Below, in pieces: positions 19,707 to 55,365 of a DNA stretch of 64,000 nt. Numbering within the stretch: the first letter of the stretch is position 1; each line of letters starts with the position of its first letter. The position numbers and the translations under genes were made by a program. This stretch comes from Ginglymostoma cirratum (lineage: Eukaryota), in contig JAHRHZ010000022.1 of assembly GCA_024137785.1 (NCBI GenBank), forward strand, positions 27,890,377 through 27,954,376, written 5' to 3'. The notes below the pieces were generated by a model that worked only from the letters and a program-made list of their open reading frames with translations, was not told the origin of the DNA and ran no database searches.

Positions 19707-19809
19707 AACAAAAACAGAAGTTGCTGGAAAAGCTCAGCAGTCTGGCAGTGTCTGTGAAGAAAAAAAATCAGAGTTAACATCTTGGGTCCTCTGATCCTTC
19801 CTCAGAACT
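19707..19809 (-). mobile_element. Penelope-like terminal unit, decayed hammerhead core, 15-bp target duplication
   Basis: Reverse begins gttctgaggaaggatcagaggaccc. Flanks cctgtacttgatagt (19692-19706) and cctgtactacatagt (19810-19824). Confidence 0.75.
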
Positions 19810-19817
19810 CCTGTACT

Positions 19818-20625
19818 ACATAGTCACAGATCGACAGTTAGAAAGCGTGGAATCGGTCCTTTTGGTCTAACTTGTCCGTGTTGACCAGCTGTCTTAAACT
19901 GACCTGGTCCCATTTGTCAGCATTTGGCCATATCCCTCTAAACCCTTCCTATTTATGTTTTCATCCAGATTTCTTTTAAATGTAATTGTAGCTGCTGCCT
20001 CCACTTCCTCTAGCAGCTTGTTCCATATATGCGCCACCCTCTGCATGAAAATGTTGCATCTCAGATCCCTTTTAGATCTTTCTACTCTTACCTTAAACCT
20101 TTGCCCTCTAGTTTTGGGCTTCCATGTCCTGAGTTAAAGACTTTGTCTATTTACCCTATCCCCATTTGCCCCTCATGATTTTATAAACCTCTCTAAGGTT
20201 GCCCCTCAGTCTCCTACACTCCAGGGGAGAAACGCCATAGCCTATTCGGCCTCTCCCTGTAGCTCAAACCCTTCAATCCAGGTAATATCTTTGTAAATCT
20301 TTTCTGAACCCTTTCACATTTAACAACATCTTTCTTATAGCAGGGAGGCCAGAATTGAACGCAAATTCCAAAAGTGGTCTCACCAATGTCCTATACAGCT
20401 GCACCACGACCCCTCAACTCCTACATTCAGTGCACTGACCAATGAAGGGAAACATGCCGAATGCCTCCTTCACTACCCTGTCTAACGGTGACTCCACTTT
20501 CAAGGAATGAAACTCCTGCACTCCTAGGTTCCTTTGTTCAGCAAAATTCCCCAAGGCCCTGTCGTTAACTGTATATATCCTGCTCTGATTTCCCTTACCT
20601 CTTACCAAAATACAATACTTCACAT
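19818..20625 (-). mobile_element. CR1 (HER1-like) LINE 3' portion
   Basis: Well-preserved reverse CR1 ORF2 C-terminus (ORF 20414 EQRNLGVQ..SLKVESPLDRVVKEAFGM) and tail. Confidence 0.85.
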
Positions 20626-22224
20626 TCAGCAAGTGGCAGATAGGGTTTAATTTAAATAACATTGGATTCCTACCGGAAAAAATATGTTATTTGGTGCACC
20701 GGTGAAGAAACTGACCACTACTTATGTAAAATTTCCATTGAAGTGCTTTTATAAAGTTGATAAGCAGGTCATTTTGTCATATTTATTTATGCCACCGTCT
20801 GATCGAGGCAAGGAAGAAAATGCGATCGGCATTGGTGCTGTGTAGTTAACAAGGCAATCAAATCTGCAGAGGTTGCTTCAGGATTGATAATTCAGTTGGC
20901 TAATTAAATGCTCTGAGTCGCACTGGGAACTTAATTGCCAAAATCATTGTAGGACTGGTAGAGATCAAGAATAACCTCGGTTCCTGTTGGTTTACAGCTT
21001 GTTTTGTTTTTTTGAATGACAGTTGCAAGGTTTGTATGTAAACAGTATTCATTTATCAGCATTACTTGGTGTTCATCAAAGGGGCAATTGGGGCAATTGC
21101 ACAAGATGGTTTCAGAGCTTCATAAGATGTTTGAGATTCAGACATGATGTTTTTTGGAAATGAACTGGTTCTGTCTTTTTCTTAGCTTTTCAGAGGTTGA
21201 TGCTATGTGTGTACATTAGAGATAATTACAGGTTGGTTGGCAAATAGCTTGTTCCCACTCTCTCCTCATTTGATTCATCACTGTAGTCTGTCAGTATCTG
21301 ATTATTTGATCCACCTTTTTGCTGTGTCTTTTGGGGATTGGTTGTCTTTGCTTTCTGTAATCGTAATTGGCACATTTATATTGTAGAGTGGACAGGATGG
21401 AATGTACATTAGATTGTACAGAGATTCAGCTTGCAGTCTTGTGGTCCTTGTGAACAATAATCAAAGAAAGTCAAAGTGTTGTATTTTGGATGTGGAATTT
21501 GATGCAGTTAACTCCAACTAAACTATTCCAAAGCACCTGCTCTTAAGTAAATTATAATGATATTATACCTGGTGAAAAAAGTAAAATGGAAAAATTGTGG
21601 GTGGTAACCCTGATATTATAAATATGACTGTAGTGGGGTAAAGGTTCGACTTGAAAGAGCACAGAATCAGTTTGGTAAATGAAAAAACACGGTTTATGTG
21701 TTTAACACAGTTTATATGTTGCCTTGGCATATTGTTATAATATACTATAACTGCTCCGTCATATGGATGAGATAAACCAAACTGGCAAGCACTCGGCGAA
21801 TGTGTTCGTGGAATGAATTTGAGGCAGTATCCTTGAATAACACATCATGGTATAAACCAGGTCAGGCAATTTCTATTTTACCTTGTGTAGTGTAATGCAG
21901 TGTTAGTTTAATCATTTCTTTGATCTTCTGGGCATGAAAGATTGTGATATGATAGAATGAATTTTAGAGTGGCAGAATTGAGCCAAAAGCCAGAGTATTG
22001 AATTTCAATCAGATACATAGGGTGAGAATCAAAGTTGGCTAAGTAGATGGAAAGTTAGATTAAAAGGCATAATTGTAGGGGAGTAATGACAAGCATTTAA
22101 TGAACTACAGCTTTGTCACGATTTTCTCTGAATTTATATTCATTGAGAAGTTAAACCTCCGTGGAAAGAGTGGTTCGGCCCTGGCTAATTTAAGAGCTGA
22201 GTATCGACCGCCTGGACTTATAAG

Positions 22225-22740
22225 GCACCTTTAACACATTACAGCATCTTGAGGAGCTTCACAGAGGCATAAAAGAAAAATCAGAGCACCAGGAGATGTT
22301 GGGGCAGATGACAATTTTGATCAGACATATAGGTTTGGGGAGTATTTTGAGGGAGGAAAGTAAGGTGGAGAGGTTCTGTGGAGGAGAATTTTGGTGCTTA
22401 AGGTGGAGAGGTAGAGAGGAGGAATTCCAGTGCTTTAATGCCCAGGCAGTCAAAAGAATGGTGATTGGCAATGCTGTAATTAAATGTTAAGAATGCTGTG
22501 TCAGCTTGAACTAAATTGGTGTAATATGTTTCAGAAGATTTATAGAGTGAGAAATGAGACTCTAAAGGGATCTGAAGACCAGAATGAGAATTTTGCAGTT
22601 GACTTGGCTCCTAAATAAGTAGTGTAGATCACCAAACTCGACGTTATTGGTGAACAGGACCTGGGGTGAGTTGGGGCAAAGGCAACAGGGTTTTCAGAGT
22701 AAAATGGGAAAGGCCAGCCAGTTGAATTCTGGAAAGTACA
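22225..22740 (-). mobile_element. Degraded L2-type LINE 3' region
   Basis: ORF 22259 (-) includes LKHWNS..LSTLLSSLKILPKPICL, resembling the L2 ORF2 end (LWNSLP..FK..LKT.LF). Confidence 0.5.
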
Positions 22741-22781
22741 AAACTTAGTTATGCTAATTTTAATCAGAGAAAACGCGTGAG

Positions 22782-22900
22782 TAACGCAAGGACTGCAGCC
22801 GTTAAAGACAGCAACTCACCTCTACCTTCTTGCTGACAATAAAGGACGGGTAATAAATCCTCATTTAGCCGCTGACACCCATATCCCATAAATAAAAAAG
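22782..22900 (+). mobile_element. Family A LINE 3' tail
   Basis: ggactgcagccg..gggtaataaat..gacacccatatcccataaataaaaa, matching 13170-13285. Confidence 0.7.
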
Positions 22901-23025
22901 AACCTGATCGTCCAATAACCTTTCATGGAGCACCTATTGAATGGAAATGATAGCAGTTATGTTACATCCAATGGCTCGTCTTTATCTACTGTTCGTTGCA
23001 TTCTCAAAAACAGGTTGGTCAGTAA

Positions 23026-23138
23026 GAGAGATAATAGGTACTGCAGATGCTGGAGAATCCGAGATAACAAGGTGTGGAGCTGGATGAACACAGCAGGCCG
23101 AGCAGGAAAGCTTGACGTTTCGGGCCTAGACCCTTCAT
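23026..23138 (-). mobile_element. Penelope-like terminal unit truncated inside the hammerhead core
   Basis: Reverse reads (t)atgaagggtctaggcccgaaacgtcaagc..gattctccagcatctgcagtacctattatctc, near-identical to 37161-37287. Confidence 0.85.
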
Positions 23139-23876
23139 AAGATTTCCCTTTTTGGAAAATTATGTTGATCTGCCTAATTTTCTAAGTTCTTTTAACAGGT
23201 TCTTAATGAATCTGTGCCCTTCCTCTGACAACGTGAAGTTAGTTTAACTGTCATGTACTTTCCAGTTTTCTCCCTCCTTCAGTCTATTCAGCAGTGATGC
23301 TACATTTTCTACATCCACACAAGACTTAAAACCAATTTCATTATCCCATCAGCCACCTCCTTTAGAATGTGGGAACGTTAGCTGTTGGACCAAAGCAATT
23401 TCGACATAGAGCCAATTAATTTCACCGATATTTTCTCTTTTTACTAAAATTAATCTTGGTTCCACACTCTTAATACTCTTGGTTTCCTAATTGTTCTGTT
23501 TTGTATTTTTACTCTGATGACAAAGTACTCTGATTATTGACTCTGGTATTCCACTGTTCCCCAGCATAATTTCACTGTCTCAGTGTGAAAAAGGATCTCC
23601 ATTTATGTTTTGCTACTTTCTTATTCCATCCTCAAGCCTCCACAGTGTTTCCTGTGTTAAAATTGAGATTGCACTTTAAAAAGTATGCAGTTTGTTGTCT
23701 TGGAAATTGATTTGAGATGTTCTGTGATTTTGAAAGGTGAGAATAAATGTGAAATGAACCTTTTTTTTTAAAAAAGATATTTCTTGCTGGTTTTCTCATT
23801 TTATTTTCTTCACTTCCTCTTTTAGCCCAGAACTCTTCTCAGTGCGCTGGCATAGGATGCCCTCTGCTGTTAGCAA

Positions 23877-24182
23877 GGGACAGCATGGTGGCACAGTGGT
23901 TGGCACTGCTGCCTCATAACACCAGGGGCCCAGGTTCAGTTACAGTCTTGGGTGTCTGTGGAGTTTGCACGTTCTCCCTGTGTCTGTGTGGGTTTCTGCC
24001 AGATACTCTGGTTTCCTCCAGAAGTCCAAGATGTACAAGTGAGGTGGATTGGCTGTGTTAAATTGCCCTGTGGTGTCCAGGCTGGTGGATTAGCCTTGGT
24101 TAATGTAGGGATACGGGGATAGGATGGGGCTGTCATGATGGGCTGAATGGCCTTCCTGCATTGTGGATTCTTTGAGTTCCTA
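23877..24182 (+). mobile_element. HE1-type V-SINE
   Basis: ggtggcacagtggttggcactgctgcctca head, V domain, CR1-like tail. Confidence 0.85.
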
Positions 24183-24194
24183 GATTTTGATAAA

Positions 24195-25850
24195 GCTACA
24201 GTGATGGAACGGTGATATCGTTCCAAATCAGGATGGCCTATTATTTGGAGGGCAACTTGCAGGTAGTGGCTTATCGTTGTCCTCCTAACTGGTAGAAATG
24301 TTGTTGGAGGACCATTGAGTAACTATAATGCCACCAATGCATACTTCTGTTGGAGTAAATGTTGGAAGTGGAGGATGGATTGCCAGTCAAGCAGACTGCT
24401 TTATTCTGGATTGTATCATGCTCCTTGATTGTTGTTGGAACTGGAATCATCCAGGCAAGTTGAGTATTCCTTCACACTACTGACTGGGGCCATGTAGATG
24501 TTGAACAAGCTTAAGGGAAGCAGGAGGGGAGTTATTCACTGCGTAATTCCTAGCCTCTGTCCTGCTCTTCTAGTCATTGGATTTTTATAGTTGGTACAGT
24601 GTCTGGTCATTGGTAACTCCCAATGCATTGAGAGATTCAGCAATAATGATGCCATGGGACTTTAAGGCGTCATGTTAAATTTTCTCTTGCTTAAGATGGT
24701 CATGAATGTTACTTGTCTCTTATCAGCCCAAGCCTGTATGTCTAACTGCAGCACCTGAGGAGCTAAGAACGATGCTGAACATTGTGTAGTCACCTATGAG
24801 CGATCTATTTACGACCATATGATGGAAAGTCACAGATGAAGCAGCTGAAGTTGATTTGGTCTAGAGCAATAGCCAGTGAAATGGACCTCTTGCGGTGCAG
24901 TGGTTATCTCTATATCTGAGCCAGGGGACCTGTGTTCAAGTCCAATCTACTCCCGAGGTGTGTTATAACATCTCTGAACAGATTGATTAGGGGGTGAAAT
25001 GCCTAGATTGTGGAATGGGGCTCATGTGTAGTAATGTCCCAGCGTCTGAGCCAGGAGGTTTGGTTTCAAGTTCCACTTGCTCCAGAGCCATGTAATAGCA
25101 TCCCTGAACAGGTTGATTTTTAAAAAAGTCTAGCCAACAGAGTGCCTGTGGTGATGTTCCGCAACTGAAATTATTGCGCCCTAACGGCCACCTTTTTTTT
25201 TGTGCTGAGTATGTCTCTGACCAGTGGAGAGTTTTCCCTTGATTCCTGCTGTCTAAAGTTTTGCTAAAGCTCCTGGAGGCCATATTTCTTCAAATGCTAC
25301 ACTGATGTTGAGGGCCATTTCTGGAGTGTTCCAGCTGTTTGCATGTTTGTACTAAGGCTGTTTAATGAGGCCAGGAACCATGTGGCCCTGATTGGACCTA
25401 ATCTGAGCATCAGTGAACAGGTATTCCTTTGTAATTGTTGCTTGATAGCCCTGCTCAGATTCTTTTTATCACTGAAGCAGTGAAAGCTAAGGGCAATAAT
25501 TGACTGGGTTAGATTTATCCTACTCCGTGTATAAGACAAACCTGAACAATTTCCCACATGTTCAAGTGGGTGCTAGTGTTGTAGCTGCACTGGAATGGCT
25601 AGTTCTCGAGCAGATCTTTAGGTGTTGGTATGCAATGTCTTCTGTTTCTTGATACCATTGTGGAATGGAATAAATTGAGTAGGTTGAGAAGTGACAGTTA
25701 TGATGCTGAGGGCCTCAGGCAGACATTGGTCATATACTCAACACTACGGCTGAAGGTAGATGCAGATGCTACAGCCTTGTCTTTTGCACTAATAAGCTGG
25801 GCTGTCTTACTATTGAGGATGAAGATATTTGTGGGATCTCCACCTCCAAA
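24195..25850 (-). mobile_element. Degraded family A LINE containing two short SINEs
   Basis: Reverse match to 11745-13285; ORF 24987 (-) includes GKTLHWSETYSAQKK. Confidence 0.7.
24883..25127 (+). mobile_element. Two tandem ~110-bp tRNA-derived SINEs (24883-24990, 25017-25127)
   Basis: Each has ggtgcagtgg/gtagtaatg..tctgagccagg..ttcaagt..ctcc.gag..taacatctctgaacag.ttgatt-like sequence; same family at 30464, 57009, 63916. Confidence 0.75.
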
Positions 25851-25929
25851 GCAAAAACAGTTGAAACCCCTGACATTAAAGAATAAAAAAACTTCGTGAC
25901 TGCCAAAAACCCCAAAGATGAAGAGAAAG

Positions 25930-26810
25930 TGAGCATTGTGCCCAAGTTAACTAAGGTCAGAGTGCTGGGTAGGAAATTAAGCTGTTAGGAAGGAGTGCAG
26001 AACCTGCAATGATACATCTAGATAATTTAACTGAGTAGACAGGAGAGTGGCAGCTGGATTATCATGTGGAAAAATATGTGGCTATTCACTTTGGTAGGAG
26101 TTTTTTTGCATATTTGAGAGATTTGTGGTGCCTGTTCATGAAACAATGTTAACCCTACAGCTTCAGCAAATAATTATGAAGGCAGTGGCACATTAGCCTT
26201 TTAATGTGAGGTGTTTGGAGTACAGGAGATCTGCTATAATACATGTTTTGTTAATGTGAATTGGCATTAACGTGATTGAATAGTGGATGCTGTTTATATA
26301 ACGCAAACTTTCTACTGTACAGGTATGGTGATTTTCTATAGTGGGAGGTAACACAACGCAACTGTCGTGTTATAGGAGAACCACCTGTATTGAGCAAGGA
26401 TATATTGTTACATTGTACTGGGATTTGCCGAGATCGCATCTGGAGTTATGAGTACCATTCTAGTTTCCCTACCCAAAGAAAGATATATTTACATTTTGAG
26501 GACATGCAAGAACAATCACTTGGTCTGTTTTGAGTTGAGACAGTTGCTGTGATGAGAGATTACATAACATTGGCCTATGTTCTTTGGAGGAATGAGAAGA
26601 AATTGCATTGAAGCATAGATTGAGAAAAGTTGATGGGTGAATGCAGATGGCTGTTTTCCCCATCTGGAAAATTTGGGGATCAAGTGGTGGTGTAGTTGCT
26701 GGATAAGGGGGTGACCATTTAGGAATCAGATAAGGAACAATTTCTCCACACGGTTCTGACCCTGAGGAATTTTCCAACCAGTGGGTTGTGGCTCCTTAGT
26801 TATTGAATAA
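25930..26810 (+). mobile_element. Degraded CR1 LINE with a nested MITE
   Basis: CR1 ORF2 C-terminal remnants (gagtggcagctggattatcatgtgg, ccatttaggaatcagataagg). Confidence 0.65.
26223..26387. mobile_element. Tc1/mariner (Tigger/pogo-like) MITE
   Basis: Imperfect TIRs CAGGAGATCTGCTATAA / TTATAGGAGAACCACCTG, with TA on both sides (26221-22, 26388-89); it splits the CR1 sequence. Confidence 0.65.
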
Positions 26811-26811
26811 A

Positions 26812-27149
26812 AATAGAAAGACCTGTGGATGCTGGAAATCAGAAACAAAAATAGAAATTGCTGGAAAAGCTCAGCAGGTCTAGCAGCATTGTCCCATTAG
26901 TAGCTATTCATTCTCCAGGGCTAATCATTATCCACTCCTTTGTCTGTTCAACCGTTCTGTCTCCTTTTTGGGCTCTTTCTCCACCTATCATTTCTCCTTC
27001 CCTCTGCCCCCACCCTGTCGTCTTCATAAAAACCAACAGTTTCCTAGCTGCCATCGGTTGTGGGGAAGGGTCTCTGGACCCCGAATGTTATGTCTGATTT
27101 CTCTCCACAGATGCACTGGACTTTTCCAGCAATTTTCGTTTTTGTTCCT
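26812..27149. mobile_element. Penelope-like fragment with inverted terminal arms
   Basis: aacaaaaatagaaattgctggaaaag (~26844-26869) is the inverse of cttttccagcaattttcgtttttgtt (27121-27146). Decayed hammerhead at ~27057-27090. Confidence 0.75.
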
Positions 27150-29684
27150 TAACCTTTGTCATACTCAATAACTAAATTTGTTAAACTTTTAGACTCTCAA
27201 GGAATATAGGAAAAAGGAAATGCTGAATCTCTTTCTGATGGACTACATAATGATCAAAGATTTGGCACTGCTAGTCATGTGTTATCGTTATGGAGATTGG
27301 TGTTGTTCTATTTAATCTGAGCAATAGAGGGGAACTGTAGTACTGTCTCAAATCCAGCTTGAATTCAGATACTGTTGCTTTACGCTCCTATATATAATCG
27401 TACAGTCATTAGCCTTTTTAACAGGACACAAAATGTTCTTAGACTGTTATGCATTGTCGTAATGTTGAGTTATGTCAGCACTGATTCATGATATCACTCA
27501 AATGTTAATTGTAGCAGTGCAGTCCATACAATAGAGAACTGGGGACAGATATAAATATAATAGATCAATCTTGCCAACTTTGATGATTTCAGCTTTCATA
27601 TTATTATGTGGCAGTTTGGTTAGTCTTATCTCTGGCCAATTTCCTACCATTAGCGATTGACCCTTGGTCGTTGTGAGGGTGGTGAAAAAAGAGGAGACAC
27701 ATTACACAGACACTATTTACCCTTCACTTGCTCACCCACATGTCTGCCATTTGTGACAATTAATGGCACACTTTCATTAGTTATTTGATTGTAAGATACT
27801 GTATCAAAGTTTAAACCTATTTCTCTATTCCTGATGACGGCAATATGGTTTGATTTTTGAATGTATGCTACAGGTTGTAATTCAGGACTTCCTTAACCTT
27901 CACTTTCAGCTACCCTGTTTCTTGACCTATAAGAGTTAATCCTTACCTGGCGTGTGTAATGAATGAAAATGGTATAGAGTGTCTCTGCAACTGTGATTGC
28001 CTCATGCTATTCTAAATTTTGCACTTCATGGAAAAGAAAACAGTGGGTGACGTTGATATGGTATAACATTAGCAATTGCTTGATATTGTTTTTTTGCCCA
28101 GGAGTGACAAATGTATTTGTGGCCAAAAGAGATTATGAAGCAGAACATGTCCATCATGTGTCGCTAAGATAGGTCACAAAAGAAACTGAGAAATCTGGTT
28201 CTATGAAAGCGTCTGATTAGCACATTGAAATGACCAATAAGGCCTGACTGAACAACACAGCTTTTCAATCTGGTATGTATTTGACTTCAAATGAGGGGAC
28301 ATTTGGCCAAAATATTCTTAGCTGAGCATAATGAAATGCATTTCAGACTGCATGCAGCAACTGCACTTCACTTAAGCTTGTCAGATTCTTCTTGTGAGCA
28401 GGGTTTTGTTAATCCCGTAGGCCATACTTGTAGACAGTCTAGTGCAAACTCCTGTCGTTATATGCCCCTAAAAAGAGAGGTCAGGATCGATAATAAGGGA
28501 TGTGGTTTGCAGTGCTTGATAATGGTTATGAACGCTTGTGTTAAGCATGTCTGGAGTTGGAACAATTGCCCCTTTGTGGCTACAGAACCAACTGCTGGCC
28601 TCCAGTAGAAAAGGCTGTTATTAAAAGGCACTATTAAACTGTCTCCCAAACGCGGTGTGGGAGTGAAGGGCCACATTCAAGTGCAAATGAGCGTAATATT
28701 GGTTGTTGAACGTTCATAGTTTTTCAGACAGTTAGTTTAAAAACTCTGTTCGTTCAGTTTTCGCATCATTGTACTCTGAAATATCAAAAATATGCTTTAA
28801 GAGACATTTGAGATTGTTTGTTCAATCGTTTGTTTTTAAAGCCAAATAGTATAAAGGCGAAATGTGTATTTAGACTCCGCTTTAGATTAAAATCTTGGGA
28901 AGTTTTTTTTTGCTGCCCTTGAACAGTTCAATAAATTCCTTCCCTGCATGCTTTTCTAAGTCATGTGCTTAGTATGAGACCACATTTCTTTTATTTGTAT
29001 AATTTGAGCGACTTTCATAAAATATCAGACTTGATCTTGCAGACCAGTTCCAGTGCAGGCATCTTGCCTGACATCCAAATCCCAAAGGTAATTCTGCCAA
29101 AATTCCCTGAAGCTTTGCTGAGACCCAGCAGATTTTACCTTCGGGTTGCCACTAGATTCATGAGACTTATGTTGGGAACTTGGCAGTGATAGCATGGAGG
29201 CCTCCTGGAATAAAAGCATTCTGATGATAATCTGTTGCAACAGTATTTGTTTTACACTGCAGATTTTTTTTTATTTGGTACTATTGGAAAGATTGCCTAC
29301 ATGCAATTAACTTTATGGACAAAATTCAGTTTGATTCATTTGACAATGAAATGATCCATACCAGTAAGGAAGAGTGTATATCATTAGACTGCACTGGAAA
29401 TCAGATATGCTAATCTAGGATTAAACTGACAGACTGGGTCTAGTTGCTGGCAGGAAGTTTATTGAAGATGTATTTCTGAGAGGTTTTTCTTTGCTTTAAT
29501 TTGCAGTGTTATAAAACATCATTTTTTTGTTTCTGGCAACTTCAAGCATAAATCACAGCAAGTATTCAGGAAATCTTGCCCGTTTTTAGCAACTGGTCAA
29601 GTTCCTGTTCTCCATATTATGGAATTGTTATAAATAACAAAAGATTTGAAATGGTTAGAATGAAACAGTAATCAGTTTTTAACT

Positions 29685-29960
29685 AGAGATAGTAGGAACT
29701 CCAGATGCTGGAGAATCTCAGATTAAAAAGGTGTAGAGCTGGATGAACGCAGTAGGCCAAGCAGCATCAGAGGAGCAGAAAAGCTGATGTTTCGGGCCTA
29801 GACTCTGTTTCAGAAAATGTTCGAGCAGTTTCAGGGCTGAAGAGGTTACAAGAGTTGCAGTGGGAGAGAGATCCACTGAGGTCTTTCCGGAGGAAGAAGG
29901 GTAACTTCAAGGTAGGCGTCCTTAGAAGACGCTTCACAGTGGGGTTAAAATTGAGTTTTA
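29685..29960 (-). mobile_element. Penelope-like terminal unit plus an extra segment, 16-bp target duplication
   Basis: Terminal unit 29685-29817 matches 37161-37287 in reverse. Flanks taatcagtttttaact (29669-29684) and taatctgtttttaact (29961-29976). Confidence 0.8.
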
Positions 29961-30463
29961 TAATCTGTTTTTAACTGTTCAGATATATTTACGCTTGAGA
30001 ATAAACTTGCAACGAAACAAAATTTGTCTATATATGCCACTGAGCACTTTTTTTATGGTGAATCTATCTTCAGTGGCCCTGAAGCTGGAGATGGAATGTG
30101 GCAGGACAGAGTGAAGCTGTGAACTTGACTGAGCAAACTTTTAGGGTTAAACTCCTTTAGAAAAATCTAGACTTGTGTTTAACATTTCATGAAAATTTAG
30201 TGTTCATGTTTCTTTTAGGATTGAGCATGGATGAGCAAGCTCTCTACTGGAAAGCAACTGAAATGAGTTAAATAGGTAGCTTGATTAAACAAGTTACTTT
30301 AGCTCTGGCAGCAGCTCAACTGCGCCTCGGTAATATAAACACAAGCAGCTGAATGTGCCTTACATTGAGTCTGGTTGGATAGAGTGAAGCAGAGTATACA
30401 GATGTTCAGCGAAGGGGTGCAGGTGGTGCTGTTTTGAATTACTACCATCAGCTTCCAGTATTA

Positions 30464-30570
30464 GTGCTCTTGTGCATTGGTAATACTCCTTCCACTGAGC
30501 CTGGAGGCCCAGGTTTAAGTCCCACCTACTCCAGAGGTTTGTCATAACGTCTCTGAACAGGTGATCAGAA
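30464..30570 (+). mobile_element. ~110-bp tRNA-derived SINE
   Basis: Matches 24883-24990. Confidence 0.75.
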
Positions 30571-35460: not shown

Positions 35461-36983
35461 CTCATTTATTTATTTGTGTTAACAATTCATCCATCCTGTT
35501 ATGAACGCTGTGAGGATTCAGACAAAAGTTTAATCATGCATCTACATTTTTTTTGCCTGTTCTGACCTTATTGACTGGTGCACTTTTGAAGTTTCAACAC
35601 CTATACTGTTCAAGTGAAGACTGTGCCAACAACACTGCTTCCTGTTTCTTTAGAATTGGCGCAAAACCACATGGATCAAACCTAATTTCTTCCACACCAA
35701 CCCTTGAGCCATACATTCAATGCTCTAATCTGATGTATCCAATTTCAATTTGCTATGGCTCGGGTAGTAATCCAGTGATGATGGATTTTCGGGTTCTACT
35801 TATTAATTTTTTCCGTCCGTGTGCCTTTAACTCTCTCACTCTTGGACTACTCCTTTTTTGTGTTGAAGGTCAGAACAATATCTCCCTTACTGAACAGCAT
35901 TCACTCATCCATGAAATTTCCAAACTTACATTTTGTTGGCAGTTACTGTCTTTGTACTTGTTTGCTTTATGTGCTTTGCAGGCAACATGTATTTTAGCTG
36001 ACTGACATTTTACAGAGCTGAGTTAAGCACTACAGTCTGGAGAATCGTGTTTGGGCTAGCTATCTGATGAATTAATCGTAGCTGTCTGTCCAGCAGAGAA
36101 TTAATTTGTGCCTAAGACTGAAATAAACCTAACATTAATGGTAAATTGTAATTAAATACAAAGTGAAAACTCGCCTTGGTTTTAAAGATAAAGTTGGAAA
36201 GTGAGGAAACTTTTAAATTCTCATGCTACGGTCCTGTCATGTGCTGCTGTCATTGCTAAAAGTGCAGAGTGGCAAATATGCATTGGATACTCCCAGGCAC
36301 GCTGTGGAAATGTCAATCATGGGACAAGTTGGGGACATGTTGCCCTGTAAGTAGAATTGGGGAATAGTGAGCACTTATCAACAAGTGTAGGAGAAAAACA
36401 GCCTATGATTGGAGGAACAGTGAGCATTTAGGAAAGTAAAAGCTGACAGTGATTGTTACAGGAAGAGTTGTTTGCTGAAACTGAGTGAGGGTAGTAGAAT
36501 GGAGCAGTTTGCTGGGAGCTGAGTGTCTCCTTTTCATAAGTTCCAAAGGAAAGGTGCCCTTTGCTGTGGTTGTCTGCTGGAGTTGGGCTCATTTCCTGCT
36601 GTGTGTTGGGGGATGCGCTGCAAGTGAACCATAGGGAAGCTGCAAAGGAAAGAACACCATTCGAAAGCTGTCAATGAAGAAATAGTCAGTGAACTGGTCA
36701 CTTTCAATTCATTCCCTCAGTCATTTCTGGTGGACGAATGTGGCATTTCCAGTGAAGGCTGTACATACTCAAACCTCTGTACCACGAAAAGTGTAGCGGA
36801 TGTATATGTAATGGGGAAGCAATGGCCTAATGGTATTATCACTAGACTGTTAGAGACCCAGGTACTGTTCTGGGCACGTGGGTTGAAATCCTGGAATGGT
36901 GGAATTTGAATTCAATCACATAATCTGGAATTAAGAATTTTATGGTGACTATGAATCAGTTGTCAGTTGTCAGAAAACTCATC

Positions 36984-37287
36984 CTCCCTGGACTGACCTA
37001 TCTCCTCCCTACCCCCCTACCTACACTCACCTTTACTGGCTCCATCCCCGCCTCTTCGACTTGCCTGCCTCCTCTCCACCTATCCTCTCCTCTATCCATC
37101 CTCTATCCGCCTCCCCCTCTCTCCCTATTTATTTCAGAACCCTCTTCCCCTCCCCCATTTCTGATGAAGGGTTTAGGCCCGAAACGTCAAGTTTTCCTGC
37201 TCCTATGATGCTGCTTGACCTGCTGTGTTCATCCAGCCCCATGCTTGTTATCTCGGATTCTCCAGCATCTGCAGTACCTTTTATCTC
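36984..37287 (+). mobile_element. Penelope-like 3' fragment (pyrimidine-rich UTR and terminal repeat)
   Basis: C/T-rich tract, then ctgatgaagggtttaggcccgaaacgtc..gattctccagcatctgcagtaccttttatctc; flanked by ctcatc (36978-83, 37285-90). Confidence 0.85.
37157..37192 (+). ncRNA. Minimal type I hammerhead ribozyme motif (PLE-type)
   Basis: AUUU-CUGAUGA-A-GGGU(uuag)GCCC-GAAA-CGUC-AAGU: intact core boxes, stem II, stem I (AUUU/AAGU with one G-U), GUC triplet, palindromic ACGU in place of stem III. Activity not shown. Confidence 0.7.
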
Positions 37288-38011: not shown

Positions 38012-38272
38012 ACTCTGCCTGAGGCATGGTGACCCTTAGATTAAATTAACCACCAGTCGTGTCTGCATCAGAGAAACTGGAAAGTTGACGTTTCAGGTTG
38101 GCAGCCTTCTTCAGAAGGATCCCGCCCAAAACGCCAACTTTCCTGTTCCTCTGATGCTGCCTGGCCAGCTATGTTCCTCCAGCTCCATACTGTGTTGCCT
38201 CTGACTCCAGAATCTGCAGTTCTAGCTATCTCCCACCAGTCAAGTCTGTCTCCTTTAGGACTATGGTAACTT
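38012..38272 (+). mobile_element. tRNA-SINE 3' part split by a palindromic Penelope insertion
   Basis: cctgaggcatggtgacccttag..caccagtc [insert] ..ggactatggtaactt, matching 58370-58475. Confidence 0.65.
38066..38232. mobile_element. Head-to-head Penelope-like terminal units forming a hairpin, 16-bp target duplication
   Basis: 38065-38110 is an imperfect inverse of 38113-38157. Flanks ccaccagtcgtgtctg (38050-65) and ccaccagtcaagtctg (38233-48). Confidence 0.8.
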
Positions 38273-40173: not shown

Positions 40174-41000
40174 TGAGATAGCAAGAACTGCAGATGCTGG
40201 AGTCAGAGACAACAGTGTAGAGCTGGAGGAACACGGCAGGCCAGGCAGCATCAAAGGAGCAGAAAAGTTGATGTTTCGGGTTGGGATCCTTCTTCAGAAA
40301 TGGGGAGGGCGAAGGGAGCTGGGAAATAAATAGAGGAGGGGTGGGGCTGAGGAAGGTAGGTGGGATGGTGATAGGTGAGTGTGGGTAGGCAGTGATGGGG
40401 ATTAGTCAGTGGGATGTGTGGGGCAGATAGGTGGCATAGAAGATGGACAGATTGCATTTGGTCAAGGAGGCGGGAGGGAGGATAGGTGGGGCTGGGGAAA
40501 GGTAGGTGGGGTGGTGATAGATTAGATGCAGATAAGGGATAGTGGGGATTATTCAGTGGGAAGAAGTTGGGCAGGTTGTGTCAGGTCAAGGAGGTGGAGA
40601 TGAGAGGGAGGGTTGGACATGGCATGAGACCAGTGATGGGAAGATTTTTAAAACTGGTGAATTCTACGTTTAGGCCAATGGGCTGTAGGCTTTTGAGGTG
40701 GAATACGAGGTGTTGCTCCTCCAGTTTGCGTGTGGTGTCCCCCGTCGCCTCCATTCAAGGCCCAAAGTAAACGTTTCATATCCGTCAGGGGTTCACCTGT
40801 CCACCCTCCAACTTAGCCTACTGTTTCCGTTGCGCCCGATGTGGCCTCCTCAATACCAGTGAGACCAAGCGTAGCCTCGGGGACTGTCTCGTAGAGTATC
40901 TGCGCTCTCTACGTGACAAACACCACCACCTTCCGTTCACCGACCATTTTAACTCTCTTCTCCCCCCTGCCACTCCCTGGGTGATTTGTCCATCCTGGGC
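40174..41000. mobile_element. Penelope-like element, GIY-YIG endonuclease region with internal inversion
   Basis: Minus arm 40174-40740: RKLEEQHLVFHLKSLQPIGLNVEFTSFK, 3' UTR and terminal unit. Plus arm 40741-41000: SIQGPK*TFHIRQGFTCPPSNLAYCFRCARCGLLNTSETKRSLGD..HFNS. Confidence 0.85.
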
Positions 41001-41029
41001 AAAGTGAGTGGTCCTAACCAAAGTGATAG

Positions 41030-41652: not shown

Positions 41653-41957
41653 ATCATAGAATCCCTACTGTGTGGAAACGGGCCCTTTGGCCGAACAAGT
41701 CCACGCTGACCCTCAGAGCATCCCACCCAGACCTATAATCCACCTAGTCTACGCATCCCTGAATACTGTAGGCAATTTAGCATGGCCAGTCCACCTGGCC
41801 TCCACATCTGTGAGAGGAAACCGGAGCACCCAGATGAAACCCACGCAGACACAGGGAGAACGTGCAAACTCCACGCAGTCGTCCGAGGGCGGAATTGAAC
41901 TTGGGTTCCTGGTGTTGTGAGGTAGCAGTGCTAATCACTGAGCCACGGTGCCGCCCC
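41653..41957 (-). mobile_element. HE1-type V-SINE
   Basis: Reverse begins gggcggcaccgtggctcagtgattagcactgctacctcac; V domain; tail ..cacagtagggattctatgat. Confidence 0.9.
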
Positions 41958-46628: not shown

Positions 46629-46650
46629 GCAATTGAACAAAAAAACAAAG
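46629..46650 (+). CDS. TNRC6A: 22-nt coding micro-exon of the same gene (AIEQKNK+G)
   Basis: Branch-point-like ctgac (46605-46609), pyrimidine tract and ttgcag acceptor, GCAATTGAACAAAAAAACAAAG, then gtaaga donor. In frame with the previous exon; matches human TNRC6A ATEQKIK(V). Confidence 0.88.
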
Positions 46651-47389: not shown

Positions 47390-48360
47390 TGCTTGAAGAC
47401 TTGTAAGGCTGCAATGATGGGGCTTTGGAATGGATGGTCATTGGTTAAGGCAATTTGGAGATTTAAAGCAGGTGGTGACTATTTTGATACTGAAATATTG
47501 CTTAAATTGGAGTCAGTGAAAGTCACCAATCGCAGGGTGCTGGATGGCCAAGTTTTGGATGAGTGCAAATTTATGTAGGGTGGAGGATTGCAAATCTGCT
47601 AGGAAAGCAATAGAACAATCAAGTCTAGAAGGGAAAAATCATAGGTGAGGATTTCAGCAGATGAGCTGAGGCCTGATTGGAGTAAAGCAATGTTGTGGAA
47701 GTGAGAGCGGGCAGTCTTGACTTGGATCTTTGATCAGAATCTTATCTCTTGCTTAAGCACAATATCTGCGTTGTTTGTTACTTAACATTAGGTAGCTAAC
47801 AGGGGTGGAGGAAGTAGTTGTGAACCAAGGACAATTAATTTCAGCCTTTTCAATCTTGGGTGAAATTTATGCTCACCCAATATTGGGTGTCAAAAATCAG
47901 TGTGACAAATCAAAGACAGTAGTGGAATCGAGAGATTGTGAGTTAGAGCTGTGTGTTATTTACATAAGTATGGAATCTGACATACTTGCAGATGGCATCA
48001 CTAAGGTAGATGAGAAACCACGGATACATTTTGAGAGAGATAGCAAGATCAGCCGATGCTGGAGTCAGATAACATTGTGGAGCTGGAGGAACACAGCTCT
48101 CCAGGCAGCATCAGGGGAGTGAGAAAGTTGACATTTCGGGTCAGGACCCTTCTTCAGAGCACCCGATGTGATGCAGAAGTCTGAAGAGTAGCCACAATAA
48201 GTGATTCTCTGACTACAAGCTAATGTTGGATGGAACTAAGTCTAGACCAACTCCGTCACCAGCTAAACATCGGTGGAGGAAAATTAGAAGAGGATCATAT
48301 AGTTCAAAAGTGTCAGAGGAAGCTCACCTAGATGTTGATTAGGGTAATTAATCGTGGTCA
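47390..48360 (-). mobile_element. Degraded L2-type LINE remnants
   Basis: Purine-rich degenerate sequence resembling the reverse L2 ORF2 C-terminus; weak recognition only. Confidence 0.4.
48033..48160 (-). mobile_element. Penelope-like terminal unit with near-intact hammerhead core
   Basis: Reverse 48160-48126 reads GCU-CUGAAGA-A-GGGUCCUGACCC-GAAA-UGUC-AACU, followed by the usual terminal sequence. Confidence 0.8.
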
Positions 48361-48384
48361 TGTCTTTTACTCCCAATACTTGCA

Positions 48385-48860: not shown

Positions 48861-50479
48861 GTTTATGGCTTGAGCATTTTTGCGCTCTTATTTTGATATC
48901 CAACTGTATTTTAAACCTCAATTTTTACCTGTACGGTGTACCTGACAGCTTGTCCCAAACACACATCGACTTGGTGAATCAATCAGTTATCGTGGCTGAA
49001 TAATTTAAACATGCCTTTTGATAATTTAAACCTGGGGACCTATTTGTCATGTTTACCTTGAAGCTGGAGTTTCTTTGCCCACAGGGGTCTGGACATTGAA
49101 TAAATTCAGCTAGAGCTGCTGTACATGAATAATTCATTTTCAAAGTATATAGACAGGAAAATGCAAGTGTTTTTTAGGACATAATCTTGATAGTTCTGGA
49201 TCGCAAAGATTGGAGTGAGTGCTTCATTGCTTCCTGTAAATATAGTGTGCATGTTCATTGAAATGTGATGTACAGTGTAATCATTGTCATGGTTCATAAT
49301 ATTGGCTTTCTGTAGGCAAATTTTTATAATCTCATTTTCTATTCAAAAATATGCTACGACCAAGTTGATGTATACATTTGATTCAGTGAGTATGTCCTTC
49401 TGTTTGGAAGGTGGTTGAATTTAGCCAATCATCCAAAACAATTCATGTATTTTAGTCTTTCACTTGTTAACTGAGGAACTGGTTTTGGTATTGGTCAAAA
49501 GTTTAGTCACTACGTTATACCGGCTCAATGTTGGCTGCACTAATTTAGTGCCTGATTTCATAGCCCTATCTGCACCTTTGCTGAACTGGCCTGGGTATTG
49601 CACATTTCCGCCTAAATTGCAGATTGGTTTTTGAAATCATTTTCTCCTTGACCACCCTGATGAAATTCCCTCCTGAAAACTTTTGTGGTTTCTAGTCATA
49701 TTAACCTGCTGGTTGAAATGTAAGTGAGTGGTCTGTTCATAATAGCTTTGAGTAACGAGCCCTGAAGACCTCAAAATTGCCACATTTGGTTTCCTGTCTG
49801 TTGACCTGCCTGATTTTACTATGTAGAATGTGACAGTTTGCTTCAGTCCACCTGAGCTGAGGATTAGGAACTCTGGTATGCGTAAGTTTCAAAGAAACAT
49901 TAGCATTGTGCTGTTATGTTGCTCTCCCTCTATTTTGTGAATGTATTTCCCGCCCCCCCACAAAGAGAGCACCAGCACCACCATCATAAAATATTTTTGT
50001 TAATGGTCATTGTCCCTGCACGCAGTTTATAACTCTGGATTTTGAATGGTATTCCATAGCTGTCACCTGTTTTGAAAACTTTTTCCTCCATGCTTATGCT
50101 TAAAACCTGCTTCCCCCGCCAAAAAATCCAAGGGTATTGTGCAAAACAGGCTAATGCCAAAGAATGAATTTTGTGGCTTTTTGCTGTCGTCTGTGCCAAA
50201 TATTCTGAAGAGCTTGTTATTCCATGTGAAATTTTCTGCATTGAAAATGTTCAAGGAAAAGCTATCAGTATTCAGGATGGATGGAGAAAGAGCAGAGTAT
50301 AACTATTGCAGATGAACTGTATGTGTTTAAAACGAGTACAAAAAAATTTGCATTTAAATGTTTTTTCTCATTCAGAAGGTTTCATGCTACCTTGCAGCCA
50401 GTGAGGTACAATTATTGTGACATGCTCAAAAAAAGCTGACCGCTATTTGAAAGAACTGGAATAAAAGTATGTAAAACCT

Positions 50480-51025
50480 TAAGCGTTTGTCTTGAATAGA
50501 CCACATCTGGAATACTTGAGCTATTTATGGGCAGAACACTTTACAAGTTATATGTTGACTTTGAAGCAAGTGCAGTACAGGTTTACCAGTATGATTCTTG
50601 CACTCAAAGGAGAAATTAAACAAACTTCAGTCATATTCCCTGAAATTTAGAAATTTAAGAAATGGTTTCCTGAAAGTTTTCAATATGTTGAGGGGAGCGG
50701 ATAGGAACTACTCGTCCGTTCGTTCAAGAATTGAGGCCTGGTGATTTTAGTTAATAAATTAGAATCAGCCCTTGCAGGAATGACATGAGCATTCTAAATT
50801 CAAATTGTAGTAGAAGTTTGGAATATTTTCTCTAAATTAGAATTAATATTGGATCAAAAGTAAATAGTCAATCGGTAATGGATTTTTCTTTATTGGCCAA
50901 AAGTATTAAGGGACACAAGGCCAAGGTGGCCGGACGCAGTTTGATTGTAGTTCAGTTGTGAACTCCATTTCATTGACAGAACAGGCTCATGGGACTTAAT
51001 GGCCTTCTCCTGTTCTTGTGTTGCA
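50480..51025 (+). mobile_element. Old CR1 LINE 3' portion
   Basis: agaccacatctggaatact..gacagaacaggctcatgggacttaatggccttctcctgttc. Confidence 0.65.
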
Positions 51026-51474
51026 GAATTAGATTTTTTTCTCCTTACATGACTAAGAAATAAGCACTTGTGAAGTTTCAGCTAATGAATCTTAAGTTGT
51101 TCATGACTTTTTCATTAATAGGATTTAGATATCACAGGTTTGGCCTGCATTTATTGCTCATCTCTAATTGCCCTTGAGAATTTGGTGTAGACATGCAGGA
51201 TGTAGACCCCTGCGACAATAAAATAATGCTGCTATAGTTCCCAGTTAGTATTGACTTAGAGGGGAGCTTCTGGCTGGTGGTGTTCCCAAGTATGTGTTCC
51301 TCCTTGTACTTTTACCTGGTAGAGTTCGGAGGTTTGGTATGTACCGTCAAAGGAGCCTTTGTGAGTGGTTCAATGTGCTGCGATCCCCACAGATGTTGTT
51401 ATTGGACAAGTCCGATCCCAGACTGAAATCTGACTTGAGAGATCGTACATTATTTTTGTTTTGGCTTTAACGAG

Positions 51475-52335
51475 GTGGTCATCTTTCAAGATTCTATAGA
51501 TTCTGGAATTGTTCTGATGGATTGGAAGGTAGCTAATGTAATCCACTATATAAAAACGGAGGTGAGAGAAAACAGAATTATTGACTGATTAGCCTGACAT
51601 TGATAGGAAAATTGCTAGAGCATGTTATCAAGGGTTTAATAGAGCGCTTGGAAACTAGTGACCATATTAAACAGAGTCAGCATAATTTTATGATGGAGAA
51701 ATCATGCTTGACAAATTTGCCATAAATTTTGGATTTAACTCAGAACTGATGGGTGGGAACAGTTGATGTAGTTTAATTGGCTTTTGGTAAGGTCCCACAT
51801 AAGAGAATATTGCATTCAATTCTGGTCGCCACACTACAAGAAGGATGTGGAGGCTTTGGAGAAGGTGCAGATGAGGTTTATTAGGATACTGCCTCATTTA
51901 GAGGGTGTGAGCTGTATAAGGGGAAACTGGACAATCTATGATTTTTTTCCTGAAGTGGTGGAGGCTGAGGAAACCTGAGAAGTTTATAAAATTGAGAGGC
52001 ATAGATAGGGTTAATATTCAGAATCTTTTCCCCAGAGTTGAAATGTCTCATATTAGAGGGTGTGCATTTTAGGTAAGGGGGGGGAAAATTTGAAGGAGAT
52101 GAGGGGCAAGTCTTTTTACTCAGTGGTAGGTGCTTACAGTGTGCTGCCAGGGTAGTACTGGGGGCAGATATGATAGGGATGTTTAAGGGGTTTTTAGATA
52201 AGTACATGAATAAACAAGAAATGGAGGGATATGGATGATTGTCATGCAGAAGGGACTAGTTCAACTTGGTGTCATGTTTGGCACAACATCGTGGACTGAA
52301 GGGTCTGTGCCTATGCTGTGCTGTTTTATGTTCTA
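51475..52335 (+). mobile_element. CR1 RT fragment joined to a CR1 3' end
   Basis: gattggaaggtagctaatgta (DWKVANV); ORF 51784 EYCIQFWSPHYKKDVEALEKVQMRFIRILP; tail gggtctgtgcctatgctgtg. Confidence 0.85.
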
Positions 52336-52454
52336 CAATTATGGACAATTTTTTTTTTACAAACTCCTCTTTAGCAACTGCTCAGAGTGGAATCTTGCTC
52401 TTTGTTTTGAATCTTTTTCAGGAGGAATGCATTGGATTGGGAGTAGTGTACTAA

Positions 52455-52560
52455 ATATAGAATTGTCTGAAGAAATATCTGACTTGAAATGTTAACACTT
52501 TCACCCCTCCTCCATAAATGCTGCCAGACTAGCTGAATTTCTCCAGCACTTAGTTCTCTG
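52455..52560 (+). mobile_element. Old Penelope-like terminal unit
   Basis: tctgaagaa..gacttgaaatgttaac..atgctgccagactagctgaatttctccagcac. Confidence 0.55.
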
Positions 52561-52564
52561 TGAA

Positions 52565-53607
52565 CAAACAAAAACAGGTTGGCAGACAGAAAACGAAGAA
52601 TAGGAATAAATGAGTCTGTTTGAGTGGCAGACGCTGATTATTGAGATAATACAGGGATCAGAGCTTTAGGCCATAGATATTCACACTATATATTAATGAT
52701 TTAGATAAGGGAACTAAAGGTAATATCTCCAAGTTTGCAGACTTGCCAAAGTGGATCAAAAGGTGAACTGTGGAGAACACTTGCAGTAGCTCAGTATGAT
52801 TTGGACATTTTGAACAAGTAAGAAATGCATGGCAGCTGAAGTATAATGTGGATAAATGTGAGGTTATCCAATTTGGTAGCAAAAACAGGAAGATAATAAT
52901 TGTGAATGGCAGTAGATTGGGAGAGGGGAAGGTGCAATGAGACCTGGGTTTTCTTATGCACCTGTTGCTGAAATTAAGTGTGCAGGTGCAGCAGGCAAAG
53001 AAACCAAATGGTATATTGGCCTACGTGGTGTGAGATTTTGAGTACAGGACCAGGGATGCCTTGCTGCAGTTGTACAGTGTGAGACCACAACTGTGACCTC
53101 CATATCTGAGGAAAGATGTTCTAATGATGGAGGGAGCGCAACTGAGGTTTCACAGCCTGATTTCTGGGATGGTGGGAGTGACTTCTGAAGAGAGACTGGA
53201 TTGCTTAGGACCATTTTGAAGTTTAGAGGAATGAGGGACCATTTCAAGGGAAACCTATAAAATTCTAACAGGACTAGATAGGGTAAACACAGGAAGGATG
53301 TTTCCAACGACCGGTGGGTCCAGAATAGGAGTCAGTCTAAAGATATGGGAAAAGCCATTTAGGACTGACATGGAGAAATTCTTCGCCCTGAAAGTATTGA
53401 GTATGTGGACTTATTTACCACAAAGCATTGAGGCCAAAACATGGATTCCTTGAACCTTAAAAACTACATATAACTGCTTGAAAACATTCAAAGGTTTGCA
53501 AAGAAAACAGGGAAAGAGTACTGAGTTGATCAACCATGATCATAGCGATGAAGAAGCAGGCTTGAAGAGCTGAATTACCTACGTGTCCTATTTTCTATGT
53601 TTCTATG
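52565..53607 (+). mobile_element. CR1 LINE 3' half
   Basis: atatattaatgatttagat..tccaagtttgcagac (YINDLD..SKFAD) through the tail ttttctatgtttctatg. Confidence 0.85.
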
Positions 53608-54564
53608 AAGCACCAACATGCAGATTTAACAATAAAAGAGAAGTTAGAGTAAAGGAAGTAAAGATGTAATAACAAACAAGACTATTTACTTATAACACAA
53701 ACCTAAAGATTTTGAAACTCTCAAATGCAATCCCATTAATCCCAAAAGCACTGGTTTATGTATCCTAAAAGTACCTCTTGTAAAGTGCTCAGAGAAAATT
53801 GCCCGTCTAACACCACTGTAAACATAATTTAACTGTGACTTTTGCTCACGGTTTGCAAAATGTGGTAGCCCCTTCCTGGTACTTTTATATACCTGAACTT
53901 AAATTTTCTCAGCATCAATCAAACTCTTCAGGGTTTTATCCAAATACCCCTTGACTGGTGCTATTACTGAACTCCTTATGCTGAGGTAATCTACGGTTAA
54001 CAAATCTAGTTATCTTCTCCCTCTCTCAGCAGTAACTGTTTTGCACATTCATCTTCCAAGACTTGAAAGGGCCCCGAACTGAAACTGAAAAATAAACTAC
54101 TTTACCCAAAAAAAAATCAGAAAATACCACCTGAAAGCTTAAGATCTATGTCTGTGAACCTTGTTTGTTGCAAACTCTCCCAATGTAAACAAAAATCCAT
54201 TAGTCTTGCAGGCTACCTCTTTCAAACTTTAAAGAAAATACCATGGTTATAGAAGTACTTGCAAGTTAACCATTAAACCCTTCAGACACACCAAAAAGCC
54301 TCTATGTCCCTAATTTAAAATTTAAAAATCCAACTTAACGAATATTAAAATTATATAATTTACCCTATATAACAAGTCCACCTTGTGGGTTGTACCCAAC
54401 ACTAATGTGTTGGATGGGGAATAGACAGAGTTTGAAGGTGTTAATTGACTTGCCACTCAACTTGGCTGATTTTTATTTTTCTGGATGATGTCAAGCTTCT
54501 TGATTGTTATAACTGCACTCATTCAGGCAAGTGGAGAGTATTTCATCATCACTCCTTACTTGAG

Positions 54565-55365
54565 GATTAACTAACCAGCAGAAAACAGTCAAGATAAATG
54601 TGTCTTTTGCTGGTTGGTAACATGCAACTAGTGAGGTGCCGCAGGTTTCGGGCCTTTGGCCCAACTGTATAAAATCTGTGTTAATTACTTTTTGTGGGGA
54701 TGGAAAGTAATATAGCTAAGTTTGCAGATGCTGTTAAAATAGACGGAAAGTAAGTAGCAATGAAGAAATAAGAAATTTACAAATGGATATGGGTAGCTTA
54801 GGTGAATGGGCTAAAATTTGGCAGGTGGAAATTTAATGTGGATTCCAGAGGTAAGGTTCCTTTCTTGAGGGAAAGAGCAATTAAGGCTTATATCCTGTGA
54901 CGTTTAGAAGAATGAGAAGAGATCTGATTGAAGTACATAAGATGCTAAAGGGGATTGACAAAATCATTAAAAAGGATGCTTCCTTACGGGGCAATCTTGA
55001 GAGTCTTGGTTTTAGGATAAGGAGTAGCAGATTTAAAAACAAGGAGAAATCTAAACAATTCATGACCCCAAAGTATGGTGGATGCTGGGACATTAAGGTT
55101 AAAGAAGAGATCAGATACATTAATCAGTAATAGTTTGAAGGGTATCTGGCAGGAAAGTGGAGTTGAGGCCGAGATGAGATCAACCAGTTCTGAAGAAGGG
55201 TAATTGACCCTGTAACATTAACCGTGCTTTCTCTTGAGCCGTTGTCAGATCTCCTGAGTTTCTCTATCTGTTTCTGTTTTTGTTGAATGAGATCAGCCGT
55301 GATTATGTCAAAATGGCAGGGCAGGCTCAAGGGGCTGAATTGCGGTTTCTGTTCCATGTTGTTAT
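54565..55365 (+). mobile_element. Degraded CR1 LINE 3' half
   Basis: gtgccgcagg (VPQG), gctaagtttgcagatg (AKFAD), ORF 54897 RRMRRDLIEVHKMLKGID, tail ggctcaaggggctgaattg. Confidence 0.8.
55186..55286 (+). mobile_element. Penelope-like terminal unit in a CR1 tail, 12-bp target duplication
   Basis: agttctgaagaagggtaattgaccc..tttctgtttttgtt; flanks atgagatcaacc (55174-85) and atgagatcagcc (55287-98). Confidence 0.7.

What the first reader, a model, noticed from the sequence alone, without database searches (positions are those of the whole stretch)
19707..55286. Dispersed ~100-130 bp Penelope terminal units whose 5' ends cluster at a hammerhead ribozyme core
Seen: at 19707, 23026, 29685, 38066, 48033 and 55186 (more loosely 52455) the terminal unit starts within a few nt of the CUGANGA box. 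At least two or three subfamilies with different stem II sequences keep the pairing (GGGUcuagGCCC, GGGUccugACCC, GGGUaauugACCC). Four copies carry 12-16 bp target duplications, so they inserted as discrete events. Known: PLE terminal repeats encode minimal hammerhead motifs (Cervera and de la Pena 2014). Inference: these behave as a ribozyme-bounded non-autonomous mini-element, or reverse transcription stalls or switches template at the ribozyme fold. The units keep the core upstream of the cleavage triplet, so self-cleavage at their own site does not explain the 5' end.
Basis: partly seen in the sequence, partly recalled or inferred. Interest (0 to 1): 0.7.

Follow-up and report, generated by a model that had tools for sequence, protein, structure and literature searches.

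The report
Penelope copies ending at transcript start
These short repeats are stubs of an ordinary Penelope-type jumping gene, and over half of the young copies sampled start within a 15-base stretch at the front edge of its small ribozyme motif, likely because the element's RNA begins there and the copying enzyme runs off its capped end, which would show how these poorly understood elements copy themselves.

Summary
The clustering is real. In an unbiased sample of young family-A copies, 54 of 94 scorable 5' ends lie at -7..+8 of the CUGA box; per-base hazard at -7..-1 is about 46 times background. A second family shows the same (11 of 35 at -7..-1). The units are not a separate mini-element: short and long copies intermix on a tree and share no captured 5' flank. 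A stall at the fold fits poorly, because the main peak lies beyond the hairpin. Both families carry a TATA-like box 29-31 nt upstream and an initiator-like A at -4, and G is over-represented just before these ends (2,392 of 4,414). The best reading is that RT, primed at the tail 95-130 nt downstream, runs off the capped transcript start. No RNA 5' end was observed directly. Head-to-head pairs join one long-tail and one short-tail arm in 96 of 107 cases. About 1% of copies start at the ribozyme cut site (suggestive only). Earlier notes of this scan reported the same reading in other genomes. Verdict: a known element, with a mechanism clue I did not find in print.

The parts
19707..19809 (-). 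Family B short unit (minimal hammerhead + tail), 5' end at A(-4); 15-bp target duplication 19692-19706 / 19810-19824
23028..23142 (-). Family A short unit with long tail, 5' end at -1; no target duplication found
26806..27147 (.). Old family B head-to-head pair: short minus arm (26806-26890) starting downstream of the hammerhead; plus arm from about 26891 carrying 3'UTR, a TATA-like box at 27025 and a decayed hammerhead (counter-example; limits approximate)
29685..29960 (-). Composite: family A unit 29685-29818 (5' end at -4) joined to an ORF-leader piece 29819 to about 29953; 16-bp target duplication 29669-29684 / 29961-29976
36979..37287 (+). Young family A long copy (counter-example): 3'UTR, TATA-like box 37126-37132, initiator-like A at 37157, hammerhead 37157-37192 (predicted cut after 37188), tail to 37287
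38066..38232 (.). Head-to-head inverted pair joined in the hammerhead core (minus arm 38066-38116, plus arm about 38113-38232); 16-bp target duplication 38050-38065 / 38233-38248
40174..40745 (-). Older family A long copy (counter-example): TATA-like box 40326-40332, initiator-like A at 40301, hammerhead 40266-40301; upstream limit approximate, followed by further inverted PLE sequence
48036..48158 (-). Older family A short unit, 5' end at -1; no clear target duplication
52466..52560 (+). Decayed family B-like unit, 5' end near -1, stem II lost; limits approximate
55186..55286 (+). Family B short unit, 5' end exactly at A(-4); 12-bp target duplication 55174-55185 / 55287-55298

Best explanation
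The units are short insertion products of Neptune-type Penelope-like retrotransposons whose 5' ends pile up at the front edge of the hammerhead, likely because the element's capped mRNA starts 4-5 nt before the CUGA box and the RT, primed at the tail 95-130 nt downstream, would run off that end. Shown: PLE origin, the two 3' end clusters, the 5' cluster, promoter-like motifs at the expected spacing in two families, excess G before the ends, and no separate lineage. Inferred: that -4 is the transcription start, that the G copies the cap, and that both target strands are primed, one at each tail site. The run-off cDNA would then be joined to the target, to the partner cDNA (head-to-head pair) or to another template by short microhomology. 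Long copies would come from priming at the second copy of the tail at the 3' end of the same RNA. The short copies lack the TATA box and are likely dead ends.
For: PLE ORF with RT and C-terminal GIY-YIG upstream of the unit. 3' ends form two clusters near +88..+99 and +124..+136, like the two RT start sites of Frangieh 2024. 5' ends: 29 of 94 at -7..-1, then 1 in the next 23 nt; family B 11 of 35. Whole-genome exact counts fall 50,033 > 38,464 > 34,050 > about 30,810 from -3 to -6 in family A and 3,519 > 2,382 > 1,670 from -3 to -5 in family B; 7 of 90 inspected family-A loci were mutated long copies, by eye. TATTTAT at -31 and CCATTTC in family A, TATAAA at -28..-31 and TCAGTT in family B, counted from A(-4) (consensus motifs recalled). 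G before ATTT in 2,392 of 4,414 against 26% background; 26 of 43 in non-inverted junctions; G before CATTT in 51 of the first 100; only 20 of the first 100 at the uncapped cut site. An extra G marks cap copying in full-length L1. Short and long copies intermix. Inverted pairs join one long and one short tail in 96 of 107.
Against: No RNA 5' end was seen: the polyA run is strand-symmetric, shows no start peak, and 89-96% of laid reads run on into unlike sequence. The G is not clean. Only about 48 of 2,392 G-ends follow a lone C (20 of the first 100 of 239); this is 3-fold above CpG background but far below a freely added G, so most G sits in microhomology. Slippage to the element's own CTG, or pairing with the partner arm, can give G without a cap. 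Family B also shows high A (about 42 of the first 100). The largest single loss in family A is a T-run class at -4. The +5..+8 peak (21 of 94) is explained only partly by microhomology. Position -4 is also the first base of stem I, so promoter and ribozyme boundary cannot be separated by position alone.
Confidence: 0.75

Rival explanations
1. RT stalls or switches template at the ribozyme fold, possibly a protein-bound or dimeric hammerhead, on a longer RNA.
For: -4 is the exact 5' edge of stem I. Family A has a second peak at +5..+8, at the 5' base of stem II. Family B has a shoulder at +9..+28 (8 of 35). The Anolis hammerhead is protein-assisted.
Against: A barrier should stop RT on its 3' side; hazard at +9..+33 is 0.003/nt against 0.066 at -7..-1. 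It does not predict TATA/initiator spacing in two families or the G excess. The +5..+8 peak is weak in family B (2 of 35), and many of its members are inverted junctions with microhomology to an arm ending near -3.
Confidence: 0.12
2. The RNA 5' end at -4 is made by processing, such as a 3' splice site or a nuclease cut next to stem I, not by transcription initiation.
For: In D. virilis Penelope the intron end maps to the 5' end of helix I. Family B has an AG at -4,-3.
Against: Family A has no AG there. No common upstream exon exists among 22 short copies with host flank (best local score 8). A cut would not give a G excess or TATA spacing.
Confidence: 0.07
3. An independent, ribozyme-bounded non-autonomous element (retrozyme- or SINE-like) that propagates from its own transcripts or circles.
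For: Very high copy number (100,703 matches to one 25-nt anchor), discrete target duplications, and PLE-derived retrozymes are described.
Against: No private lineage or variants. 5' ends are ragged over about 15 nt with heterogeneous junctions. No tandem arrays of the unit were seen among the copies inspected. The unit lacks the TATA box. A cleavage-made circle would start at +29.
Confidence: 0.04

Closest known systems
EN+ Penelope-like elements, Neptune/Nematis type (Craig et al. 2021, PMC8557442; passages read)
   Same: RT with C-terminal GIY-YIG, CX2-5CxxC linker, 5' truncation, adjacent inverted copy, optional 30-40 bp tail, partial tandems.
   Different: Truncation here is not spread out: over half of sampled young copies end in a 15-nt window at a promoter-like site. 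Not found in the passages read.
Anolis Poseidon PAc, internal RT initiation (Frangieh et al. 2024, PMC11167929; parts 1-2 of 4 read, supplementary figures gave labels only)
   Same: Two adjacent RT start sites downstream of the hammerhead define the tail; both target strands are extended; uncleaved RNA is the template.
   Different: The paper addresses where RT starts, not where it ends. Here the tail lies before the apparent ORF start. Its Fig. S2 coverage plots, which I could not see, may bear on 5' ends.
[quoted passage not shown]
   Same: CUGANGA-N-stem II-GAAACGUH core, short stem I, no stem III, mostly single motifs in truncated PLEs, some opposite-strand pairs.
   Different: That paper proposes cleavage and circular templates; here most short copies keep the uncut core and start upstream of it.
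Non-LTR retrozymes (Li et al., bioRxiv 10.64898/2026.07.22.740005; parts 1-3 of 5 read)
   Same: PLE pLTR-derived, type I hammerhead, dispersed monomers.
   Different: Retrozymes are defined as tandem arrays with a hammerhead in each unit; these are dispersed monomers or head-to-head pairs with no lineage of their own.
Full-length L1 insertions with cap-derived extra G, and twin priming (PMC11702581; passages read); retroviral minus-strand strong-stop DNA (recalled)
   Same: RT run-off at a capped RNA end leaving a G; priming from both target strands giving inversions.
   Different: Here run-off gives the shortest product, because priming is internal and near the RNA 5' end; both arms start at fixed sites and face head to head.

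Membership tests
EN+ Penelope-like element | Single ORF with RT and C-terminal GIY-YIG endonuclease | tested here: met
   L370:5483-7447: RVT_1 E=1.8e-6 (just under the curated cut-off), GIY-YIG E=4.3e-5
EN+ Penelope-like element | Pseudo-LTR, optional 30-40 bp tail, inverted 5' copies | tested here: met
   Two 3' clusters about 33 nt apart; 43 of 94 ends abut inverted PLE sequence; partial tandems L362, L380
Neptune/Nematis clades | CX2-5CxxC linker between RT and EN | tested here: met
   C-x4-C-x2-C before the GIY-YIG domain in the translation; definition
Neptune clade | RT phylogeny | not tested
   No reference RT set was fetched
Minimal type I hammerhead | Conserved core with stems I and II and compensatory changes | tested here: met
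   13 hand-picked family representatives: 92% of cells paired, 3 of 8 pairs with two-sided change (2 in stem I, 1 in stem II); related sequences inflate the shuffle test
Minimal type I hammerhead | Self-cleavage activity | not testable with these tools
   Only indirect: a modest excess of ends at +29..+31
Non-LTR retrozyme | Tandem array with a hammerhead in each unit | tested here: not met
   Window and sampled copies are monomers, inverted pairs or small composites; no genome-wide tandem search was run
Non-autonomous element / SINE | Own lineage and fixed ends, independent of long copies | tested here: not met
   54 short and 44 long copies intermixed, Fisher p 0.3-1.0 at three variant sites; 82 columns only
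Cap run-off product | Capped transcript starting at -4 | tested here: inconclusive
   Motif spacing and G excess agree; RNA-seq shows no start peak

The most novel reading that the evidence does not exclude
The PLE mRNA is terminally redundant (start site to tail at both ends), and the genome holds tens of thousands of fossil strong-stop-like cDNAs. A PLE RT dimer primes both target strands at the two tail sites. Run-off at the cap leaves stubs and head-to-head pairs, while transfer of the run-off cDNA to the 3' repeat regenerates the upstream promoter, giving the missing mechanism of pseudo-LTR formation. The hammerhead sits at the extreme 5' end as a decapping switch, and the roughly 1% of copies starting at +29 record cleavage in the germline.
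Probability: 0.35. Interest if true: 0.7.

Novelty: new variant of a known kind. Interest (0 to 1): 0.5.

Why it matters
How PLEs complete insertion and rebuild their pseudo-LTR is open; Schostak et al. state there is no obvious mechanism beyond tandem formation, and Frangieh et al. leave later steps unvalidated. A base-resolution record from about 100,000 young copies gives sharp, cheap predictions: a capped start 4 nt before the hammerhead, one RT start site per target strand, and rare use of cleaved RNA. It also warns annotators that such stubs are not a new SINE or retrozyme.

Tried and rejected
Rfam scan: no hammerhead hit. First genome search required upstream sequence, so it was not used for breakpoints. 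The first breakpoint run had artefacts at -62 and +81 from single references; it was redone with several. RNA: no holder on record as RNA was listed; the two raw-read runs laid gave strand-symmetric read-through and no start or end peak, so short or circular RNAs were neither shown nor excluded; run X23 had only 61 reads. Single-strand and dimer folding did not return the hammerhead fold as minimum energy, so it is uninformative. Cut-site peak: transversion-letter counts are +22: 331, +28: about 280, +29: about 1,090, +31: 828, +37: 450 (+28 and +29 scaled from hand tallies of the first 100 rows). This is a bump, not a single-base spike, and a palindrome there confounds it. A tail-anchored family B sample could not be cut out, so family B rests on 36 copies mined from loci already held. 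Literature searches found no paper describing PLE copies ending at a transcription start; the library lacks most subscription journals and Repbase/Dfam notes.
Full report
Numbering: C of the CUGA box is +1, the base before it -1; the predicted cut follows +28.

Observation. All cited units are present, with 5' ends between -4 and about +5. Four target duplications of 12-16 bp with 1-2 mismatches are confirmed, but two frame composites: a unit plus ORF leader (29685-29960) and an inverted pair (38066-38232). The window also holds copies that run through the motif (36979-37287, 40174 onward, the plus arm at 26891-27147) and one arm that starts downstream of it.

What it is. [quoted passage not shown] This is an EN+ PLE of Neptune/Nematis type by the linker; no tree was built. 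At least three families share the architecture. The unit is the minimal hammerhead of Cervera and De la Pena plus the tail. 3' ends fall in two clusters about 33 nt apart, matching the two internal RT start sites shown in vitro for the Anolis element.

Breakpoints. I sampled young family A by an anchor at +33..+57, blind to the 5' side (100,703 genome matches): 104 copies on contig C1 and 23 from 80 arbitrarily placed 10-kb stretches, of whose bases 339,124 of 800,000 read N. Of 127 copies, 33 were censored. Of 94 ends, 29 lie at -7..-1, 4 at +1..+4, 21 at +5..+8, 8 at +9..+33 and 32 further upstream. Hazard is 0.066/nt at -7..-1 against 0.0014 upstream, a 46-fold excess. Family B, mined from held loci, has 11 of 35 at -7..-1, 2 at -9 and 6 beyond -30. 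Whole-genome exact counts lose 38% between -3 and -6 in family A and 53% between -3 and -5 in family B. In a polyA run, depth on family B jumps about six-fold at this point on both strands; this reflects copies inside host transcripts, not a promoter.

Why there. Long copies of family A carry TATTTAT 31 nt before the A at -4, in the context CC-A-TTTC. Family B, with a different upstream sequence, carries TATAAA 28-31 nt before the A of TC-A-GTT. These fit a TATA box and initiator (consensus recalled); a similar pair was noted in a rotifer pLTR, and the D. virilis promoter lies in the pLTR. Among copies that leave the parent just before A(-4), the junction base is G in 2,392 of 4,414 (background 26%). 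It is G in 26 of 43 non-inverted junctions over three sets, in 51 of the first 100 ending at -5, but in 20 of the first 100 at the cut site. An extra G marks cap copying in L1. Against a clean reading: most G sits in microhomology or could come from slippage to the element's own CTG, many ends are T-run stutters, and family B also has excess A. First-100 tallies were counted by hand.

Rivals. A separate mini-element predicts its own lineage; 54 short and 44 long copies intermix (26 changes, 25.6 shuffled; 22 identical rows include both) and short copies share no flank. A stall predicts ends on the 3' side of the hairpin, where family A hazard is near background. The +5..+8 peak may reflect joining by microhomology or trimming back to the stem II hairpin, and is not settled. 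Splicing predicts a common upstream exon, which is absent. Self-cleavage accounts for little: 1,765 copies differ at +28, and 21 of 30 inspected are true ends (two are one insertion seen twice), about 1% of copies, 1.3-4 times neighbouring controls.

Two-ended priming. Prompted by an earlier scan note, I scored head-to-head pairs in all held loci (not a random sample; 7 dropped for N or edge): 96 of 107 join a long-tail and a short-tail arm, against 53 expected. This suggests that each target strand uses its own start site. Of four copies spanning hammerhead to ORF leader, two end at about -3 and two continue seamlessly into the promoter; the latter fit transfer to the 3' repeat, read-through RNA or a circle equally.

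Prior work. The parts are known: hammerheads in pLTRs, tails, inversions, truncation. I found no paper placing the start at the hammerhead edge or describing run-off stubs. Papers seen: PMC11167929 parts 1-2 of 4 plus two supplementary PDFs that gave labels only; PMC4209133 parts 1-2 of 4; the 2026 bioRxiv retrozyme preprint parts 1-3 of 5, no supplements; passages only of PMC8557442, PMC2377424, PMC3846280, PMC11702581 and PMC6155905. Earlier notes of this scan reached the same reading in other genomes; they are not independent support, and my reading was recorded before that call.

Verdict. Observation confirmed, interpretation redirected: run-off at the likely capped start (0.75), stall (0.12), processing (0.07), mini-element (0.04). 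New variant of a known kind; interest 0.5.

Noticed in passing
L380:4242-4526, L362, L363, L163, L006, window 29819-29953: Upstream segments of composite insertions that include the ORF leader end at about +240..+295 and are joined directly to another PLE segment; possibly a preferred template-switch landing zone.
   Followed up: partly
L008:1076-1169, L222:2982-3020: A third PLE family with stem II GAGUC/GACUY and stem I AGCU/AGCU; both arms of the L008 inverted pair end within about 8 nt upstream of the CUGA box.
   Followed up: partly
L291-L320: About two thirds of copies that differ at +28 truly start at the predicted ribozyme cut site; possible trace of cleavage in vivo, confounded by a local palindrome.
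   Followed up: partly
L152, L158, L170, L111, L396: Short repeated restarts of the first bases of the unit at the 5' junction, as if RT jumps several times at the template end.
   Followed up: no
L031-L110 and many pattern loci: 39% of the window-plus-random-stretch bases read N, and runs of N often sit inside inverted pairs, so inverted insertions are probably under-scored.
   Followed up: partly
L235, L254, L366, L373: Family A and family B units are found joined or nested at each other's ends, suggesting cross-family template switching or targeting.
   Followed up: no
window 2535-2857, 6614-6946, 23881-24173, 41736-41954: Dispersed copies of a tRNA-headed SINE-like repeat (families D1, D11, D14, D16); identity as a shark SINE is recalled, not tested.
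   Followed up: no
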